59,473 bases of DNA, from the NCBI GenBank assembly GCA_041389085.1, contig JAWKSL010000003.1, positions 1 through 59,473 on the forward strand. The letters run 5' to 3'. The position numbers and the translations under genes were made by a program. Below, in pieces: positions 15,145 to 20,693 of the stretch. Below the pieces are notes generated by a model that saw nothing but the letters and a program-made list of their open reading frames with translations, had not been told where the DNA came from and made no database searches. This DNA comes from Minisyncoccota bacterium. Its GTDB lineage: Bacteria > Patescibacteriota > Minisyncoccia > UBA6257 > 1-14-0-10-44-23. Numbering within the stretch: the stretch's first letter is position 1; each line of letters opens with the position of its first letter.

Positions 15145-15909
15145 TTATAACCCTGTTAGCACCTCAACGCCGTCTTTTTTTACGAGCACCGTGTGTTCGA
15201 AGTGTGCAGAAAGGCTCCCATCTTTTGTGGCGTAGCTTTCGTCTGAGGGTTTTTGAATAATTTGTTCACTACCCGTACTAAACATTGGCTCAATTGCAAG
15301 ACACATGCCCTCTTTTAAAGTTATTCCTTCGCCCTCAACGCCGGTATTAAATACGGTTGGCTCCTCGTGTAAATCTTTGCCAACTCCGTGCCCGGTGAGC
15401 CCCTCTACAACGCTGAGGTTGTAGTTATGGGCCACTTTTTCTATTGCCGCCCCTACGTCGCCTAGCGTTGCTCCTTCGCGCACAACTTTAAGTGCTTCGT
15501 CGAGCGCCTCTTTTGTAGCTTGTACGAGCTGGTGCGCCTCTTTAGACCCATTCCCGATTATAAATGTTCTCGCTGCGTCTACGTTGTAACCTTCGATTTT
15601 TACGCCCATGTCTATAGTAAGAAGATCTCCATCTTTCAGAGCATAGTCGTTTGGTATGCCGTGTACGATTGAGTCGTTTACGCTTGCGCAAATGGTTGCT
15701 GGGTAGGCATGGTGTGCCCAGGCGGGCTTGTAGTTAAGAAAGCCTGGTGTACCACCAAGAGACTCGATTAGCTCCTGTGCTTTTGTATCGATTTGTTTGG
15801 TAGTAGTGCCTGGTTTGCACATCGGCTCGAGCTGCTGCATAACTTCAGCCCAAATTTTGCCAGCACGGCGCATCTTTTCCTGCTCTTCAGGGCTTTTAAT
15901 GAGTGTCAT
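15145..15909 (-). CDS. map: Type I methionine aminopeptidase
   Basis: 254 aa. Metal ligands occur in DLLTIDMG, GLTGHGVG, AIEPM and FEHTVLV contexts. Confidence 0.92.
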   Translation of the reverse strand: MTLIKSPEEQEKMRRAGKIWAEVMQQLEPMCKPGTTTKQIDTKAQELIESLGGTPGFLNYKPAWAHHAYPATICASVNDSIVHGIPNDYALKDGDLLTIDMGVKIEGYNVDAARTFIIGNGSKEAHQLVQATKEALDEALKVVREGATLGDVGAAIEKVAHNYNLSVVEGLTGHGVGKDLHEEPTVFNTGVEGEGITLKEGMCLAIEPMFSTGSEQIIQKPSDESYATKDGSLSAHFEHTVLVKKDGVEVLTGL

Positions 15910-16579
15910 TTTTTATTTCTAAAAGTTTAACAATTTGTTTGTGAACTTCCTCTGGGCTTTGTTTTCCATCAACTTCAAACACTTCGTGTCCGCGATCTTT
16001 TACTGCTTGAATTGCAGGAATTGTTTCTGTTTGATAGCGTGCGTAGCGCAACTTTATAACTTCAGGTTTGTCTAAGTCGCGCTGCGTTACCTCACCGTCG
16101 CATTCACTTGGATCGAGAATGACTTTTCTGGTTGCTTTGCAAATAAGACGCTTTGAGTTTCTCTCTACTGACGTTGCCGCGTCTACAAACACGTGCACGA
16201 AAAGGAGATTTTCAAAACCAAATAAGCGCTCAAGAATTGGAACAAGCCCTTCGCCTTTTTCGTCTCCATTTACCTCGCCAACCGTGCGCCCTGAGCCTGA
16301 AAGCACTACATTTCTTTTCTCTTTATACAGTTGCTCAATTTTCGCGCGCGTTTGTTTAAGAACCCAATTACTATCAAGGAGCTCACCAGCAGAAAACTTT
16401 TTTGCCTGTATTTGATACTCTGGGTCGTTTTTATTTTCTTCTGCGTTTAAAATCTGCTCTAGATAGCGCCCAATGTCGAAGTGGTAGAAGCCTGCGTGTT
16501 CTTCAAGAAGGTTTGCTTGTGTGCCCTTCCCTGATCCTGGAGGTCCGTACAGAAATATCGCTTTTGGTGTTTGGTTCAT
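15896..16579 (-). CDS. adk: Adenylate kinase family protein
   Basis: P-loop LYGPPGSGKGTQANLL. 227 aa with an inserted LID-like region. Confidence 0.8.
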   Translation of the reverse strand: MNQTPKAIFLYGPPGSGKGTQANLLEEHAGFYHFDIGRYLEQILNAEENKNDPEYQIQAKKFSAGELLDSNWVLKQTRAKIEQLYKEKRNVVLSGSGRTVGEVNGDEKGEGLVPILERLFGFENLLFVHVFVDAATSVERNSKRLICKATRKVILDPSECDGEVTQRDLDKPEVIKLRYARYQTETIPAIQAVKDRGHEVFEVDGKQSPEEVHKQIVKLLEIKNDTH

Positions 16580-16602
16580 ATTTTGAGTGTATCAGAAAAT
16601 GA

Positions 16603-16727
16603 AGTGGGGCCACTCGACCGTGAAGTCGAGTAGCCCCATTGAATGGGTGCCTCGGGAGCGTCCCCCCTGGAACCTAGCTGACGTTACGCACGTCCGCCCG
16701 GACTACTCCCAAGGCTTTTTCAATTTA
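16603..16727. other. GC-rich hairpin-rich intergenic element (candidate sRNA or terminator-attenuator)
   Basis: GGGGCCACTCGAC-CGTGAA-GTCGAGTAGCCCC hairpin and a GCCTCGGGAG...CTCCCAAGGC helix followed by TTTTT on the plus strand. Lies between pheS and adk. Confidence 0.3.
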
Positions 16728-16747
16728 CTTCATTCTATGTGGCTTGT

Positions 16748-17890
16748 CTACCGAATTGTGGCCTGAAACTGCTCTACCGTCTGATTTTCTACTTCTTTCT
16801 GAATTGGCTCTACTTCTTCTGCGGTAAGAGTTTTGTCGATGCTGCGGTAGTGAATGCGGTAGGTGTAACTTACCTTGTTTTCGCCGAACTTTGCTGCGTC
16901 TTCGTATTTATCGAGCAGAGCTACCTCTTCTACAAGGTTGCCGCCGATGTCGCGGATAAGATCAAAATAGTTGTTTGGAACGAAGCTTTTATCCACGATG
17001 AAAGAAATGTCGCGTACTACTGGAGGGTACTTACTTACTTCTTTATATACGTTTCCGAGCTTGAGTTGCTTTACGACGCGGTCGTCTTTTGACCATAGGA
17101 GGCGAATGTCTGGGAGCTTCATGCTAATAATGGCGAGCCTCTCAAGACCGAATCCGAACGCCCAACCGGTGTAGTTGCTTGAATCTACGCCAAGCTTTTC
17201 AAGCACACTGCCTTTTACAACGCCAGAACCAAGTACTTCTACCCAGTGTCCGTCGATATTGATTTCCATTTCGAGACTTGGATCGGTGTATGGGAAAGTG
17301 TCTTTGTTGAAGCGATACTCGATATCGTCTCCGAATACAGTTTTTGCGATGTTTGCGAGAACTTCTTTTAAGTCTTCTACGCCAATAGTGCCTTTGTCTT
17401 TTGGTACGAGGTAGTAGCCGTCGATTTGGTGAAAGACGTTCATGTGGCGCTTATCGAGCTCATCTTTTCGATATACTTTCCCGTAGGTTAAAACTCCCAG
17501 CGTTTCGTTGTTGGCTATTTTCTTTTTTGCTTCTTCACTGTTGAGGTAGTAGTACCACGATACTGTTGTGTGTGGGCGAAGAATGTATTCGTCTGTAACG
17601 TAGTAGGTATCTGACTTGCTTCGTGCTGGGTGGTCAGCGGGAAAGTCGAAAAGGTCGAAGCTTTGAGCTACTGGCACTATTTCTGGAACCTGAACAACTG
17701 AAAAGTCTTTAAATTGTTCAAGGTTGGTTATCTTCTGCGCAAGTTCGTAAATTGGGCTACCTTCCGTACGAGAAAGGTCGGGCATGTCTAAAAATCGAAT
17801 CTGGCGCTGGCTCTCAGCGTCTGTTCGTGTTTGTAGCTCCTTCTTTAGCTCCTCTTCTTTTGTGAGATCTATTTTTATATATTCAGGCAT
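16748..17890 (-). CDS. pheS: Phenylalanine--tRNA ligase, single-chain mitochondrial-type (PheS core + C-terminal FDX-ACB domain)
   Basis: The catalytic core carries HPAR, FHQIDG and GFGLERLAI. The C-terminus DIRLLWSKDDRVVKQL...SKYPPVVRDISFIV...YFDLIRDIGGNLVEEVALLDKY...YRIHYRSIDKTLTAEEV parallels human FARS2. Confidence 0.85.
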   Translation of the reverse strand: MPEYIKIDLTKEEELKKELQTRTDAESQRQIRFLDMPDLSRTEGSPIYELAQKITNLEQFKDFSVVQVPEIVPVAQSFDLFDFPADHPARSKSDTYYVTDEYILRPHTTVSWYYYLNSEEAKKKIANNETLGVLTYGKVYRKDELDKRHMNVFHQIDGYYLVPKDKGTIGVEDLKEVLANIAKTVFGDDIEYRFNKDTFPYTDPSLEMEINIDGHWVEVLGSGVVKGSVLEKLGVDSSNYTGWAFGFGLERLAIISMKLPDIRLLWSKDDRVVKQLKLGNVYKEVSKYPPVVRDISFIVDKSFVPNNYFDLIRDIGGNLVEEVALLDKYEDAAKFGENKVSYTYRIHYRSIDKTLTAEEVEPIQKEVENQTVEQFQATIR

Positions 17891-17927
17891 ATTGTTGAGA
17901 ATACTGCTAATGGTACACTAGTAATAT

Positions 17928-18260
17928 ATGTTTGAGGATAGTATCGCTTCTTCTACTGCTGCACAAGCCCCGATTTTTATTGAATATACATTTTTGTGGG
18001 GCATCGGGCTTTTGGTTCTTTCTATTCTCGTTTCTCTTCTGTCTATGCGCATTTCAGGGCGACAGGCTCTTCTTTTTTGGCTTATCAATACTTCATTAAG
18101 TTTTAGCGCGCTCACCTTGATTGGCCAGTCATTTCCCCGATTTAACCAGTTTGTCGTTTTTGGTGTAATTTTTGCGATTATACTCGTACTTGCTGCAAGT
18201 GGAGCGGTTGCTCCAAAGAAAGAAAAGCCTGCTGAGGCTCCGCAGCCAAAAGAAGAATAA
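17928..18260 (+). CDS. Hypothetical membrane protein (3 TM)
   Basis: 110-aa hydrophobic ORF with a Lys/Pro/Glu-rich tail. Confidence 0.6.
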   Translation: MFEDSIASSTAAQAPIFIEYTFLWGIGLLVLSILVSLLSMRISGRQALLFWLINTSLSFSALTLIGQSFPRFNQFVVFGVIFAIILVLAASGAVAPKKEKPAEAPQPKEE

Positions 18261-18265
18261 ATGTG

Positions 18266-18339
18266 TGTCAGAGGGGAGACTTGAACTCCCGACCTCGGCG
18301 TTATGAATGCCGCGCTCTAACCAGCTGAGCTACTCTGAC
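18266..18339 (-). tRNA. tRNA-Met(CAT), elongator or Ile-lysidine type
   Basis: Hand-folded cloverleaf: GTCAGAG TA GCTC AGCTGGTTA GAGC G CGGCA TTCATAA CGCCG AGGTC GGGAG TTCAAGT CTCCC CTCTGAC A. No CCA is encoded. Confidence 0.85.
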
Positions 18340-18577
18340 TTATTTTTATATCCAAGAACTTCCTTCCCTGCCCCGACTTTAAGAACTTTTCTCGCTTCAT
18401 TGCCTCCTTTTTGTCGCCGTATTTTTCTTCGAGAATAAGTTTAAATGGCTTGTTTTCCCTTGTAAACTTATTTGATCCACTATTGTGTTCCTGTAATCGA
18501 ACGCTTGCCTGCTTGCTTGTGTAGCCTACGTATCTTTTACCATTTTTTAGGCTTTTTAGAACATAAACTGTGAACAT
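18317..18577 (-). CDS. GIY-YIG nuclease family protein (86 aa)
   Basis: FTVYVLKSLKNGKRYVGYTSKQASVRLQEHN is the GIY-YIG signature. The last 8 codons and the TAG stop are supplied by nt 1-23 of tRNA-Met. Confidence 0.85.
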   Translation of the reverse strand: MFTVYVLKSLKNGKRYVGYTSKQASVRLQEHNSGSNKFTRENKPFKLILEEKYGDKKEAMKREKFLKSGQGRKFLDIKISQSSSAG

Positions 18578-18594
18578 AGCGGTAATCTCTAACC

Positions 18595-18625
18595 CCAGCC
18601 AGAGGCTGGTCCGCCTTTGGCGGAA
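18595..18625 (-). repeat. 31-nt twin-hairpin module, copy 1
   Basis: TTCCGCCAAAGGCGGACCAGCCTCTGGCTGG (CCGCC-AAA-GGCGG and CCAGCC-TCT-GGCTGG), identical at 31/31 positions to 21652-21682. Confidence 0.9.
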
Positions 18626-18705
18626 GCTGAGCTACTCTGACATGTATCTTTAAATACTGGGAAATAATACTGAAAATTCCTTGTTTCTTCAAGTTTTATT
18701 GTATC

Positions 18706-18733
18706 AAAAAAGGCCCGATTCGGCCTTTTTTGA
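18706..18733. terminator. Bidirectional intrinsic terminator
   Basis: AAAAA-AGGCC-GATTC-GGCCT-TTTTT. Confidence 0.75.
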
Positions 18734-18752
18734 AAATGAGTTTTCTTTGGTG

Positions 18753-19112
18753 TTAACCCATTCGTCTTCCTTTGCCGAAACCGATAGCAAGGAATATAAC
18801 CGCGAGGAGAACGTGGAGGAGGTTGTCAGCCATGTTTGCCGCAAGAATTCCGTTCAAAAAGTCGCTTGCTATAAACCCAAGAACCGCTACGAGTCCGTAG
18901 ATAATTCCAAAGATCTGAGCAAATTGTCGTGCTCCCCTTTCTCCTTTTGCCGCGAACATAAGAGCTACAATACCGGAGAGAAGGTGGATGATGTTGTGCA
19001 CAGTATCAACTTCAAAGATGCCAAGAAGCATTCCATTTGAGGTTATTCCTGGCACGAAGCCAAGAATTCCGATGAGGATGAATACCCATCCGAGCAATTT
19101 CACTGTTTTCAT
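18753..19112 (-). CDS. DUF4383-like membrane protein
   Basis: 119 aa with 4 TM helices. The motifs FEVDTVHNIIHLLSG and DNLLHVLLA are typical of DUF4383. Confidence 0.7.
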   Translation of the reverse strand: MKTVKLLGWVFILIGILGFVPGITSNGMLLGIFEVDTVHNIIHLLSGIVALMFAAKGERGARQFAQIFGIIYGLVAVLGFIASDFLNGILAANMADNLLHVLLAVIFLAIGFGKGRRMG

Positions 19113-19232
19113 AGTTTTGCTTTATTGGTTTGTAATAATTCGGCCTTTTTGTTTTAGTGTGTTTTGTGCTGTCTTATATAGCTTTATTATAACAACAAAG
19201 CAGCCTCAAAAGGCTGCTTTACTGAATAAATG

Positions 19233-19304
19233 TTGCGGGGGTGGGAATCGAACCCACGGTCTGGTGGTTATGAGCCACCCGAGATACCATTTCTCCACCC
19301 CGCG
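19233..19304 (-). tRNA. tRNA-Met(CAT), initiator-like
   Basis: Fold: CGCGGGG TG GAGA AATGGTA TCTC G GGTGG CTCATAA CCACC AGACC GTGGG TTCGATT CCCAC CCCCGCA A. The C1:A72 mismatch is characteristic of bacterial initiator tRNA. Confidence 0.8.
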
Positions 19305-19355
19305 GTAGTGTTATTGATTGCTGTATTGTAGAATAAATATCGAATTTGTCAATTT

Positions 19356-20693
19356 ATGAAAACAGAAAATGTGCGTATTGGAATAATTGGTTTTGCCCGT
19401 GAAGGAAAAAGTTTGGCGGAATTTTTACTTACTCGCCTAAAGGGGTATTGCGAAATTACTTTCTTAGACCAGCGCACAATTAAATCTAGCGATCGCGACT
19501 CACGCTTTCACTACAAAACTGGGAAAAGCTACCTTTCTACTCTTAACTCTTTCGATATTGTTTTCCGCTCCCCTGGCGTTCCGTTCCTTACTAAGGAAAT
19601 ACAAGCCGCGAAAAAGAGCGGTGTCGCCATTTCAAGCGTGACAAACATTTTTTTCCAGGAAATACATACGCTGCGCCAGAAGAAAAACTCAGACTACCCG
19701 AAAATTATTGCGGTAACTGGCACTAAGGGCAAAGGAACTACCTCGACGCTCATCTACAACATGCTTAAGAAAGCTGGAAAGAAGGCGGTGCTTGCTGGAA
19801 ACATTGGAGTGCCGATGCTCGATGTGCTTTCGAAGGCAAAAAAGAGTGAGTTTATTGTTCTAGAGCTTTCAAGTTTTCAACTTCAGGATTTAAAACACAG
19901 CGCTGATGTAGCCGTGCTTGTACCAGTTTCGCCAGACCATCTCGACCACCACAAGACAATGGCTGAATACGTAAACGCAAAGGCGCAGCTTACCAAAACC
20001 CAGGTTAAGGGCTGCCGTGCATACTGCGTAGCTGGAAACAAGCTTTCGGAGAAAATTGTTTCTTTCTCTGCCGGTAAAAAGGTTTTTGTGAAGCCAGAAT
20101 CATTCAAGCTCTTTGACTCCTCTGATCTTTCTGTACCGGGTATGCACAACTTTGAGAATGCCGTACTTGCTGCGACGGTCGTTTCTGACCTTGGCATTGA
20201 TAAGGCTGCTATTGCTTCTGCGGCAAAGGTGTTTAAAGGGCTTTCACACCGATTGGAATTTGTGCGGAAGGTTTCTCATTCTAGCGCGCGCGTATCCGTC
20301 TTTGACGACAGCGCTGGAACAAACCCCATTACCTCTGTAGCTGCTGCCCGAGCATTTTCTATTCCTTCTATTGTAATGATTGGTGGAGTTGGAAAGGTTT
20401 CCTATGCGCCACTGCGTGAGCTCAAAAAGACTAACGCGTCTGCTGTAGTTCTTTTCGGCCGAGATGGTAAGAAGGCGCGCAAATTTATACCTCGACACAT
20501 TCAGGTTGTTGAAGCGGGCGGTAAGGACTTTTCAAAGATCGTTAGAACTGCGCTCGATCTTTCTCTGAAGCTTTCAGCTGAGCTTCATTCTGAAGTTGCA
20601 CTCCTTTTTTCACCAGCAAGCGCGAGCTTCGATATGTTTGAAAATGCGTATCAGCGAGGCGACCTATTTCAAGAGTTTGTAAAAAAAATGTAG
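19356..20693 (+). CDS. murD: UDP-N-acetylmuramoylalanine--D-glutamate ligase
   Basis: 445 aa, Mur ligase with AVTGTKGKGTTST P-loop and an N-terminal Rossmann-like GFAREGKS. Confidence 0.88.
   Translation: MKTENVRIGIIGFAREGKSLAEFLLTRLKGYCEITFLDQRTIKSSDRDSRFHYKTGKSYLSTLNSFDIVFRSPGVPFLTKEIQAAKKSGVAISSVTNIFFQEIHTLRQKKNSDYPKIIAVTGTKGKGTTSTLIYNMLKKAGKKAVLAGNIGVPMLDVLSKAKKSEFIVLELSSFQLQDLKHSADVAVLVPVSPDHLDHHKTMAEYVNAKAQLTKTQVKGCRAYCVAGNKLSEKIVSFSAGKKVFVKPESFKLFDSSDLSVPGMHNFENAVLAATVVSDLGIDKAAIASAAKVFKGLSHRLEFVRKVSHSSARVSVFDDSAGTNPITSVAAARAFSIPSIVMIGGVGKVSYAPLRELKKTNASAVVLFGRDGKKARKFIPRHIQVVEAGGKDFSKIVRTALDLSLKLSAELHSEVALLFSPASASFDMFENAYQRGDLFQEFVKKM

What the first reader, a model, noticed from the sequence alone, without database searches (positions are those of the whole stretch)
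16748..17890. Mitochondrial-type single-chain phenylalanyl-tRNA synthetase
Bacterial PheRS is normally an (alpha-beta)2 enzyme encoded by pheS-pheT. Here the 380-aa protein fuses the PheS catalytic core to a C-terminal FDX-ACB anticodon-binding domain.

The C-terminal half aligns by eye with human mitochondrial FARS2:
- DIRLLWSKDDRVVKQL versus DIRLFWCEDERFLKQF.
- SKYPPVVRDISFIV versus SKYPAVINDISFWL.
- YFDLIRDIGGNLVEEVALLDKY versus [22 protein letters not shown].
- YRIHYRSIDKTLTAEEV versus YRITYRHMERTLSQREV.

No pheT follows the gene; adk is next. The beta subunit carries the editing site, so its absence would imply non-edited Phe charging.
Basis: partly seen in the sequence, partly recalled or inferred. 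Interest (0 to 1): 0.6.

Follow-up and report, generated by a model that had tools for sequence, protein, structure and literature searches.

The report
Single-chain, proofreading-free bacterial PheRS
This tiny-genome (CPR/Patescibacteria) bacterium appears to charge tRNA-Phe with one 380-residue polypeptide built like the mitochondrial enzyme; the usual two-subunit bacterial enzyme and its proofreading domain were not found anywhere in its genome or in its family.

Summary
Window 16748-17890 (-) is an intact 380-aa ORF with a PheS class II core (aa 43-275) and an FDX-ACB anticodon-binding domain (aa 286-380). Its best solved relative is human mitochondrial PheRS (E 4e-62; AF2 model against 3CMQ, TM 0.79).

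The 0.61-Mb genome (92% complete) shows no pheT, no second pheS and no B3/4 or B5 domain, but it has a normal tRNA-Phe(GAA). All 12 genomes of its GTDB family show the same pattern. In 150 genomes of the class, 34 of 35 carriers of the single-chain gene lack pheT, and none of those 34 has a B3/4 domain.

All catalytic and Phe-pocket residues shared by PheS and mitochondrial PheRS are kept. The catalogued look-alike SrmL has lost several of them.

In the tree the gene lies in a bacterial clade of its own. That clade is outside the eukaryotic/mitochondrial clade and outside SrmL, and the protein falls just under both NCBIfam cut-offs.

It is most likely the sole, editing-free housekeeping PheRS. 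Activity, monomer state and fidelity are inferred, not shown.

This scan has already noted the same thing on other DNA (211 notes, at least 210 genomes). I found no paper describing it.

The parts
16748..17890 (-). Complete gene for the single-chain PheRS (380 aa plus stop codon at 16748-16750)
   Evidence: ORF list. More than 5,700 homologues; the best 120 are 66-77% identical, about 380 aa long and carry both domains. A strain variant in an activated-sludge run differs at 29 listed sites, 24 of them synonymous.
17765..17890 (-). N-terminal helical region, aa 1-42. It is short and lacks the Phe_tRNA-synt_N coiled coil of bacterial PheS.
   Evidence: AF2 model shows helices at aa 10-21 and 25-35, with pLDDT 87-97. 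There is no PF02912 hit, whereas the PheS of relative G031 has one.
17066..17764 (-). Class II PheRS catalytic core, aa 43-275, with motifs 2 and 3 and the Phe pocket
   Evidence: PF01409, E 1.2e-53. Residues H87, R90, R105, H107, R141, D146, H149, F153, Q155, F199, T202, E218, G221, G223, A244, G246 and R251 are kept in 136 CPR sequences, as they are in PheS and in the mitochondrial clade.
17036..17065 (-). Linker or hinge between the catalytic and anticodon-binding domains, aa 276-285
   Evidence: It lies between the two Pfam envelopes. The model shows a coil here with the lowest local pLDDT, 86.
16751..17035 (-). FDX-ACB (ferredoxin-fold anticodon-binding) domain, aa 286-380, homologous to the C-terminal B8 domain of PheT
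   Evidence: PF03147, E 2.9e-22. It matches pheT_bact profile positions 689-798 and PheT chains in the PDB.
16605..16638 (-). 15-bp GC-rich hairpin followed by a T-rich tail, between the PheRS stop codon and the adk start. It looks like a terminator.
   Evidence: Consensus scan only. No Rfam family, T-box or leader was found in 15500-19500.

Best explanation
The gene encodes the organism's only phenylalanyl-tRNA synthetase, a single polypeptide.

How it most likely works:
- The PheS-type class II core makes Phe-AMP and transfers Phe to A76 of tRNA-Phe.
- The C-terminal FDX-ACB domain is the same module that sits at the end of bacterial PheT. It reads the GAA anticodon, probably after a hinge rotation from a closed to an open state, as in human mitochondrial PheRS.
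- No B3/4 editing domain exists in the protein or in the genome. Mis-made Tyr-tRNA-Phe or m-Tyr-tRNA-Phe is therefore not hydrolysed by PheRS, and accuracy rests on the synthetic site alone.

In this lineage the enzyme has taken the place of pheS/pheT. The substrate tRNA-Phe is an ordinary bacterial one and did not change with the swap.

Shown: architecture, fold, conserved active-site residues, absence of pheS/pheT/B3-4/B5, near-perfect either/or distribution with pheT, purifying selection.

Inferred: Phe specificity, monomeric state, hinge mechanism, lack of editing in vivo.
For: Architecture and fold:
- Domains.
- Human mitochondrial PheRS is the best PDB hit by sequence.
- It is also the best by fold: AF2 model pLDDT 95; against 3CMQ TMq 0.79, rmsd 2.9 A over about 390 columns; bacterial PheS chains match only the core, TMq about 0.54.

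Sole PheRS in this genome:
- No pheT, no second pheS, no B3_4 and no B5 in G000.
- tRNA-Phe(GAA) is present, with G1-C72, A73 and a normal cloverleaf.

Not an assembly gap:
- 12 of 12 genomes of family f1 (88-98% complete) have the single-chain gene, and none has more of pheT than that gene's own FDX-ACB.
- In the order, 6 further families have the single-chain gene and no pheT, and 13 families have pheT: 12 with pheS, and one (G175) with a partial pheT below the cut-off and no pheS found by this query.
- In 150 genomes of the class, 35 carry a full-length single-chain gene. 34 of these lack pheT, and none of the 34 has any B3/4 domain.

Active site:
- Every residue invariant in both PheS and the mitochondrial clade is kept. 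This includes the pocket Ala (A244, the position of E. coli A294), T202 (E. coli T251), F199 and motif-2 R141.
- True SrmL sequences differ at H87, F153, F199, G221 and F245.

Same tRNA:
- tRNA-Phe genes from 13 single-chain genomes and 14 pheST genomes show no group-specific difference. One sequence is identical across the two groups.

Conserved context and selection:
- The order murD, tRNA-Met, PheRS, adk, map, greA, lysS is conserved in the family.
- 24 of 29 strain differences are synonymous.
- A 208-nt contig from a metatranscriptome library lies inside the gene. This is weak evidence.
Against: - No biochemical data exist for any member of this bacterial clade.
- The protein scores below the curated cut-offs of all three relevant NCBIfam models: pheS_mito 250.7 against 258.35, SrmL 238.7 against 300, pheS 167 against 237.
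- Pocket residue 201 is Tyr in 130 of 136 CPR sequences, where PheS and the mitochondrial enzymes have Phe. The effect on specificity is unknown.
- D157 replaces the Glu of PheS, although 22 of 77 sequences of the mitochondrial clade also have Asp.
- The genome is 92% complete.
- One genome of the class (G086) has both pheST and a single-chain gene. Its copy belongs to a different subclade.
- A trans-acting helper or editing factor of an unknown family cannot be excluded.
Confidence: 0.85

Rival explanations
1. It is not a PheRS but an SrmL-like 'mystery ligase', a PheS-derived single-chain enzyme with another substrate. Phe-tRNA would then be made some other way.
For: NCBIfam NF051887 (SrmL) is the second-best model, at 238.7 bits. 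True SrmL sequences (P0242, P0269) fall in the same large branch of the tree as the CPR clade, with support 96/84.
Against: - The score is well under the SrmL cut-off of 300, while real SrmL sequences score 402-415.
- SrmL has replaced H87, F153, F199, G221 and F245, all of which are kept here.
- No other PheRS exists in the genome, although tRNA-Phe is present.
- The either/or pattern with pheT is what a functional substitute predicts.
Confidence: 0.04
2. The canonical pheS-pheT lies in the unassembled 8% of the genome, and this gene is an auxiliary second PheRS. That is how single-chain forms appear in Chryseobacterium and other non-CPR bacteria.
For: Completeness is 92%. Single-chain forms do occur in bacteria that should also have pheST. 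G086 has both.
Against: - Twelve independent assemblies of the same family all lack pheT, pheS and B3/4.
- 34 of 35 carriers in the class lack pheT, several of them in assemblies rated 100% complete or made of a single contig.
- The extra copy in G086 and the non-CPR copies belong to other subclades.
Confidence: 0.03
3. The single chain is the catalytic PheRS but does not act alone. It would need a separate partner, either the stand-alone 118-aa tRNA-binding protein elsewhere in the genome or an unrecognised trans-editing factor. Charging would then be neither strictly monomeric nor unedited.
For: The genome has a free tRNA_bind protein (L002:1420-1776). Two genomes of the family carry a free-standing 223-aa B3/4-domain protein. 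Earlier notes of this scan proposed such helpers in other genomes.
Against: - The tRNA_bind ORF is of the MetRS C-terminal/Trbp111 type (TIGR00399, 130 bits, over its cut-off). It hits pheT only at E 0.002, and it lies on another contig.
- G000 has no B3/4 domain at all.
- None of the 34 single-chain-only genomes of the class sample has one. The free B3/4 ORFs in that sample lie in genomes that also have pheT.
- Human mitochondrial PheRS works alone (established knowledge; PDB 3CMQ/3TUP).
Confidence: 0.08

Closest known systems
Mitochondrial phenylalanyl-tRNA synthetase (human FARS2, yeast MSF1; 'PheRS-M' of AARS Online, PMC11580382; NCBIfam TIGR00469; PDB 3CMQ closed form, 3TUP with tRNA)
   Same: - One chain made of a PheS-type class II core and a C-terminal FDX-ACB domain.
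- No B3/4 editing domain.
- Same fold and closed domain arrangement (TMq 0.79 to 3CMQ).
- 32% identity over the whole length.
- Same catalytic and pocket residues.
   Different: - It is bacterial and acts in the cytoplasm on a canonical bacterial tRNA-Phe.
- It lacks the roughly 25-residue insertion that splits the HMMER match to human PheRS after aa 174.
- It has Tyr instead of Phe at pocket position 201.
- It lies outside the clade that holds the eukaryotic sequences.
- It scores just under the TIGR00469 cut-off.
Bacterial (alpha-beta)2 PheRS, PheS/PheT (TIGR00468/TIGR00472; PDB 1PYS, 3PCO)
   Same: The catalytic core is homologous to PheS (E 1e-35 to 1e-22). The C-terminal domain is homologous to the last domain of PheT (profile positions 689-798). 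tRNA-Phe is the same.
   Different: It has none of the following: the PheS N-terminal coiled coil, the PheT B1-B7 domains, the B3/4 editing site, the B5 domain, or the catalytic-like beta core. It is one gene instead of two.
SrmL, 'PheS-related mystery ligase' (NCBIfam NF051887)
   Same: Same two-domain single-chain layout. It falls in the same major branch of the single-chain tree (96/84).
   Different: Real SrmL sequences score 402-415 bits against 238.7 here. They sit on a very long branch. They have changed H87, F153, F199, G221 and F245, which suggests another substrate.
Editing-defective PheRS of Mycoplasma (own knowledge: Li et al. 2011 PNAS; Yadavalli and Ibba 2013 NAR; not re-read here)
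   Same: A reduced-genome bacterium that lives without PheRS proofreading.
   Different: There the beta subunit is kept and the editing site is degraded by point changes. Here the whole beta subunit is gone and a different enzyme form does the job.

Membership tests
Monomeric mitochondrial-type PheRS (PheRS-M / TIGR00469 pheS_mito) | Single chain: PheS-type class II core followed by a C-terminal FDX-ACB domain | tested here: met
   PF01409 at aa 43-275 and PF03147 at aa 286-380
Monomeric mitochondrial-type PheRS (PheRS-M / TIGR00469 pheS_mito) | Score at or above the curated TIGR00469 cut-off (258.35 bits) | tested here: not met
   250.7 bits. A 61%-identical clade member, P0121, reaches 264.3, so the clade straddles the cut-off.
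Monomeric mitochondrial-type PheRS (PheRS-M / TIGR00469 pheS_mito) | Three-dimensional fold and domain arrangement of 3CMQ | tested here: met
   AF2 model pLDDT 95, pTM 0.91. Foldseek against 3cmq: E 1e-35, TMq 0.79, rmsd 2.9 A.
Monomeric mitochondrial-type PheRS (PheRS-M / TIGR00469 pheS_mito) | Phylogenetic placement inside the clade that contains eukaryotic mitochondrial PheRS | tested here: not met
   Careful IQ-TREE. The query lies in the CPR core clade (100/99) within group A (96/84). Sequences confirmed as eukaryotic (Salpingoeca, Branchiostoma, chytrid, fern, Coemansia) lie in group B (100/97).
Monomeric mitochondrial-type PheRS (PheRS-M / TIGR00469 pheS_mito) | No editing (B3/4) domain | tested here: met
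   None in the protein, and none in the genome at E<=1
Monomeric mitochondrial-type PheRS (PheRS-M / TIGR00469 pheS_mito) | Active as a monomer; aminoacylates tRNA-Phe with Phe | not testable with these tools
   Needs enzyme assays and SEC-MALS
PheRS in general (functional class) | Conserved motif 2 and 3 residues and Phe-pocket residues | tested here: met
   H87, R90, R105, H107, R141, D146, H149, F153, Q155, F199, T202, E218, G221, G223, A244, G246 and R251 are kept. Y201 stands for Phe and D157 for Glu (invariant list).
PheRS in general (functional class) | Cognate tRNA-Phe present, and no other PheRS in the genome | tested here: met
   tRNA-Phe(GAA) at C1:284519-284593. No other PF01409 PheS-type hit and no pheT.
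SrmL (NF051887) | Score at or above the curated cut-off (300 bits), and the SrmL active-site pattern | tested here: not met
   238.7 bits. Residues that SrmL has changed (positions 87, 153, 199, 221, 245) are of the PheRS type here.
Bacterial PheS alpha subunit (TIGR00468) | Score at or above the cut-off (237.45), N-terminal Phe_tRNA-synt_N domain, and a partner pheT | tested here: not met
   167.3 bits. No PF02912. No pheT in the genome or in the family.

The most novel reading that the evidence does not exclude
The PheS-core plus FDX-ACB fusion may be an old bacterial invention rather than a eukaryotic one.

All single-chain forms make one clade against PheS (100/100). This clade includes the CPR housekeeping forms, SrmL, scattered copies in Bacteroidota, Nitrospirota, Bacillota and deltaproteobacteria, and the mitochondrial enzymes.

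On this reading the mitochondrial PheRS was acquired from a bacterial single-chain lineage. CPR bacteria would then be a large living reservoir of free-living cells that run translation without PheRS proofreading.
Probability: 0.3. Interest if true: 0.75.

Novelty: new variant of a known kind. Interest (0 to 1): 0.55.

Why it matters
Textbook bacterial PheRS is an (alpha-beta)2 heterotetramer with an editing site in the beta subunit. The monomeric, non-editing form is described as a mitochondrial peculiarity.

Here a whole family of bacteria, and about a quarter of the sampled genomes of its class, appears to rely on a monomeric form alone. That gives three things:
- A natural test of how much PheRS proofreading a free-living or episymbiotic cell needs.
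- A compact bacterial PheRS that recognises a canonical tRNA-Phe. This is useful for studies of tRNA recognition and for engineering.
- Bacterial relatives with which the unexplained origin of mitochondrial PheRS can be tested phylogenetically.

There is also an annotation point. NCBI records call most of these proteins 'hypothetical protein', so automated inventories would score these genomes as lacking PheRS.

Tried and rejected
I could not see the genomic context of the unnamed metagenomic representatives (P0134, P0143 and others).
- Regulatory RNA: no T-box, leader or other Rfam family in 15500-19500, only the two tRNA-Met genes. The promoter scan found no more than chance.
The remaining hits were ordinary pheS cores. 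I did not pursue this.
- The idea that the stand-alone tRNA-binding protein is a relic of PheT: rejected for this genome. It is of the MetRS C-terminal type and lies on another contig.
- Compensation by a free B3/4 trans-editing protein: rejected as a general rule. None of the 34 single-chain-only genomes of the class sample has one. It is present only in two genomes of the family.
- Co-evolution of tRNA-Phe with the enzyme type: none seen.
- 'In-place' replacement of pheST: only suggestive here. In one pheST-bearing genome of the order (G031), pheS-pheT lies beside the same murD and tRNA-Met pair, but the downstream side differs. Four other pheST loci of the order show no shared neighbours.
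- The ESM Atlas look-up of P0134 only pointed back to CPR ('Minisyncoccota') clusters.
- Literature: six full-text searches found no description of a bacterial monomeric PheRS. AARS Online lists PheRS-M only with FARS2/3CMQ.
- The RNA-library contig is too small to prove transcription.

Full report
**1. Observation**

The window holds an uninterrupted 380-aa ORF at 16748-17890 on the minus strand.
- Pfam finds the PheRS class II core (PF01409, aa 43-275, E 1.2e-53) and the ferredoxin-fold anticodon-binding domain (PF03147, aa 286-380, E 2.9e-22).
- The best solved relatives by sequence are six human mitochondrial PheRS chain sequences from nine entries (3cmq, 5mgu and others; E about 4e-62). 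Bacterial PheS chains match only aa 40-277, and PheT chains match only aa 274-374.
- Downstream on the same strand lie adk, map, an unknown ORF, greA and lysS. Upstream lie a small membrane ORF, tRNA-Met, a GIY-YIG gene, a DUF4383 gene, a second tRNA-Met and the divergent murD.

**2. Is it the only PheRS?**

The window is contig 3 of a 609,573-bp, 13-contig assembly rated 92% complete.
- The pheT_bact profile hits only this ORF's own C-terminal domain, plus a weak tRNA_bind ORF.
- PF01409 finds no second PheS-type core.
- B3_4 and B5, the editing and DNA-binding-fold domains of both bacterial and archaeal beta subunits, give nothing even at E<=1. The same searches hit all 14 control genomes.
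- ARAGORN finds 37 tRNA genes, including one tRNA-Phe(GAA). It has a normal cloverleaf, G1-C72, discriminator A73, an encoded CCA and G37.

**3. Is the absence of pheST an assembly gap?**

No.
- All 11 other genomes of the same GTDB family carry the single-chain gene; in one it is cut by a contig end. None of them has more of pheT than that gene's own FDX-ACB.
- In 19 further families of the order, six have the single-chain gene and no pheT. The other thirteen have pheT: twelve over the cut-off with pheS, and one (G175) with a partial pheT below the cut-off and no pheS found by this query. None has both.
- In an even sample of 150 genomes of the class, 35 have a full-length single-chain gene (E<1e-100). 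34 of those 35 have no pheT, and none of the 34 has any B3/4 domain.
- The exception, G086, carries pheS-pheT plus a single-chain gene of a different subclade.
- The two states are mixed within at least ten GTDB families.

An either/or pattern of this strength is what a functional substitute for an essential enzyme predicts.

**4. Is it still a PheRS?**

I aligned 136 CPR single-chain sequences, 77 sequences of the mitochondrial clade, two true SrmL sequences and six CPR PheS sequences.
- Every position that is invariant in both PheS and the mitochondrial clade is kept in the CPR clade: H87, R90, R105, H107, motif-2 R141, D146, H149, F153, Q155, G158, F199-P200, T202, S205, E207, E218, G221, G223, and motif-3 W243-A244-F245-G246 and R251.
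- A244 is the position of E. coli PheS A294, and T202 is that of T251. These are the classic determinants of pocket size (own knowledge: Kast and Hennecke 1991; Datta et al. 2002).
- Two clade-specific changes stand out. Y201 is Tyr in 130 of 136 CPR sequences, where PheS and the mitochondrial enzymes have Phe. D157 replaces the Glu of PheS, but 22 of 77 sequences of the mitochondrial clade also have Asp.
- Sequences that pass the SrmL cut-off (P0242 and P0269, 402-415 bits) have replaced H87, F153, F199, G221 and F245. The query is therefore not an SrmL.
- Its NCBIfam scores are 250.7 for pheS_mito (cut-off 258.35), 238.7 for SrmL (cut-off 300) and 167 for pheS (cut-off 237). This probably explains why NCBI records name these proteins 'hypothetical protein' while JGI calls them 'PheRS alpha chain'.

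**5. Structure**

An AlphaFold2 model built from a 48-sequence alignment has mean pLDDT 95 and pTM 0.91.
- Foldseek ranks the closed form of human mitochondrial PheRS first (3cmq: E 1e-35, TMq 0.79, rmsd 2.9 A).
- The tRNA-bound open form 3tup aligns worse as a whole (TMq 0.59). The model is therefore in the closed arrangement.
- Bacterial PheS chains align only with the core (TMq about 0.54).

**6. Phylogeny**

I built a careful ML tree (IQ-TREE, LG+C20+F+G4 PMSF; 60 rows, 386 columns) rooted on nine PheS sequences.
- All single-chain forms are one clade (100/100).
- Group A (96/84) contains SrmL on a very long branch, two unnamed metagenomic lineages, a small clade (an Oligoflexia MAG, a deltaproteobacterial MAG and the extra copy of G086), and the CPR core clade (100/99), which holds the query.
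- Group B (100/97) contains sequences confirmed as eukaryotic: Salpingoeca, Branchiostoma, a chytrid, a fern and Coemansia. It also contains full-length copies from Chryseobacterium, other Bacteroidota, a Nitrospiraceae MAG and a Tissierellia MAG.

The query is thus mitochondrial-like in build but not a recent import from eukaryotes. The direction of transfer between bacteria and eukaryotes inside group B cannot be read from this tree.

Within the CPR core clade the gene tree disagrees with taxonomy.
- The five family-f1 sequences are not one clade, and the AU test rejects holding them together (p 2e-9).
- The same-genus genome G151 is only 62% identical to the query, while G153, of another genus, is 74% identical.
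- Local gene order is nevertheless conserved.

This points to lateral exchange of the gene among CPR lineages.

**7. Substrate tRNA**

I compared tRNA-Phe genes from 13 single-chain genomes and 14 pheST genomes of the class.
- They share the acceptor end, D loop, GAA anticodon, A73 and mostly G37.
- No position separates the two groups, and one sequence is identical in a genome of each kind.

The swap of enzymes needed no change in the tRNA.

**8. Gene integrity and occurrence**

- Near-identical DNA occurs in wastewater, activated-sludge and aquatic metagenomes of several studies.
- An activated-sludge strain differs at 29 listed sites in the gene. 24 are synonymous and five are conservative replacements. 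This indicates purifying selection.
- One 208-nt contig from a metatranscriptome library lies inside the gene. That is weak evidence of transcription.

**9. Mechanism proposed**

- Shown: a catalytically intact PheS-type core fused to the PheT-type anticodon reader, and no editing domain anywhere in the genome.
- Inferred by analogy with human mitochondrial PheRS (3CMQ/3TUP): the enzyme works as a monomer. The FDX-ACB domain swings away from the core on a short hinge (aa 276-285) to bind the GAA anticodon, while the acceptor end enters the active site. Fidelity depends on the synthetic site only.
- Open question: whether Y201 tightens discrimination against Tyr.

**10. Novelty and context**

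- This scan has already recorded the same kind of gene many times on other DNA (211 notes in at least 210 genomes). My results agree with the main line of those notes.
- They do not support, for this genome, the idea that a PheT-derived tRNA-binding stub survives. The only free tRNA_bind protein is of the MetRS C-terminal type.
- Six full-text searches found no paper describing a bacterial monomeric PheRS. AARS Online lists PheRS-M only with FARS2.
- The family is nevertheless catalogued without comment in databases, through the NCBIfam models, JGI names and automatic Atlas names.
- I rate it a new variant of a known kind, of moderate to high interest to aaRS specialists, with the biochemistry still to be done.

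Noticed in passing
window 17894-18261: An activated-sludge strain (run X4) joins 17893 directly to 18262 with 10 other letters in between. It therefore lacks the 110-aa membrane ORF (17928-18260) between the PheRS gene and tRNA-Met. This ORF is a strain-level indel.
   Followed up: no
L124:1604-2275 (-) (G157:C5) and G159:C8:507945-508250: Two genomes of the same family, which lack pheT, carry a free-standing 223-aa protein that is essentially a B3/4 domain (PF03483, 92.7 bits). It is a candidate trans-editing factor. It is absent from G000. Similar 221-240-aa ORFs occur in a few pheT-bearing genomes of the class.
   Followed up: partly
L045:3893-5029 (+) (Chryseobacterium jejuense); also L044, L046-L050, L052: Non-CPR bacteria hold full-length single-chain PheRS genes of the mitochondrial clade: cultured Chryseobacterium, other Bacteroidota, Nitrospiraceae and Tissierellia. 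In C. jejuense the gene sits among two GNAT acetyltransferases, a hexapeptide transferase and an AraC regulator. This looks like a resistance or accessory locus, possibly an inhibitor-insensitive spare PheRS.
   Followed up: partly
L036 (G086:C57:1577-2704) and L035 (G086:C2): This is the only genome in the class sample with both pheS-pheT and a single-chain gene. Its single-chain copy groups with Oligoflexia and deltaproteobacterial MAG sequences, not with the CPR core clade.
   Followed up: partly
L002:1420-1776 (-) (G000 contig 1, about 33.9 kb): Stand-alone 118-aa tRNA-binding protein of the MetRS C-terminal/Trbp111 type (TIGR00399, 130 bits, over its cut-off). Its role is unknown. It is not a PheT remnant.
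   Followed up: partly
G000:C1:284519-284593 (-) and loci L128-L156: tRNA-Phe of this class mostly has G37 (anticodon loop CUGAAGA) rather than the A37 usual in well-studied bacteria. A minority has A37. There is no link to the PheRS type.
   Followed up: partly
CPR core clade of the single-chain gene (rows): The gene tree conflicts with taxonomy. Sequences of family f1 are split; G151 (same genus as the window) groups with a genome of another family, and a Saccharibacteria MAG sequence nests among them. The AU test rejects f1 as one clade (p 2e-9). This points to lateral exchange of an essential translation gene among CPR bacteria.
   Followed up: partly
class sample, pheT matches: Most pheT genes of this class start at profile position about 157, so they lack the N-terminal B1/B2 tRNA-binding part (frames of 650-730 aa). 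This fits a remark in PMC5370408 that B2 is missing in many CPR PheRS-beta proteins. Several others are split or carry large inserts.
   Followed up: no
P0162 (872 aa, unnamed representative): This protein has an AlaRS N-terminal catalytic part (TIGR00344, 375 bits, aa 115-415) followed by a complete mitochondrial-type PheRS (390 bits, aa 460-871). It is either a real fusion or a gene-model artefact.
   Followed up: no
window 16605-16638 (-): A 15-bp GC-rich hairpin with a T-rich tail lies between the PheRS stop codon and adk. It matches no Rfam family.
   Followed up: no
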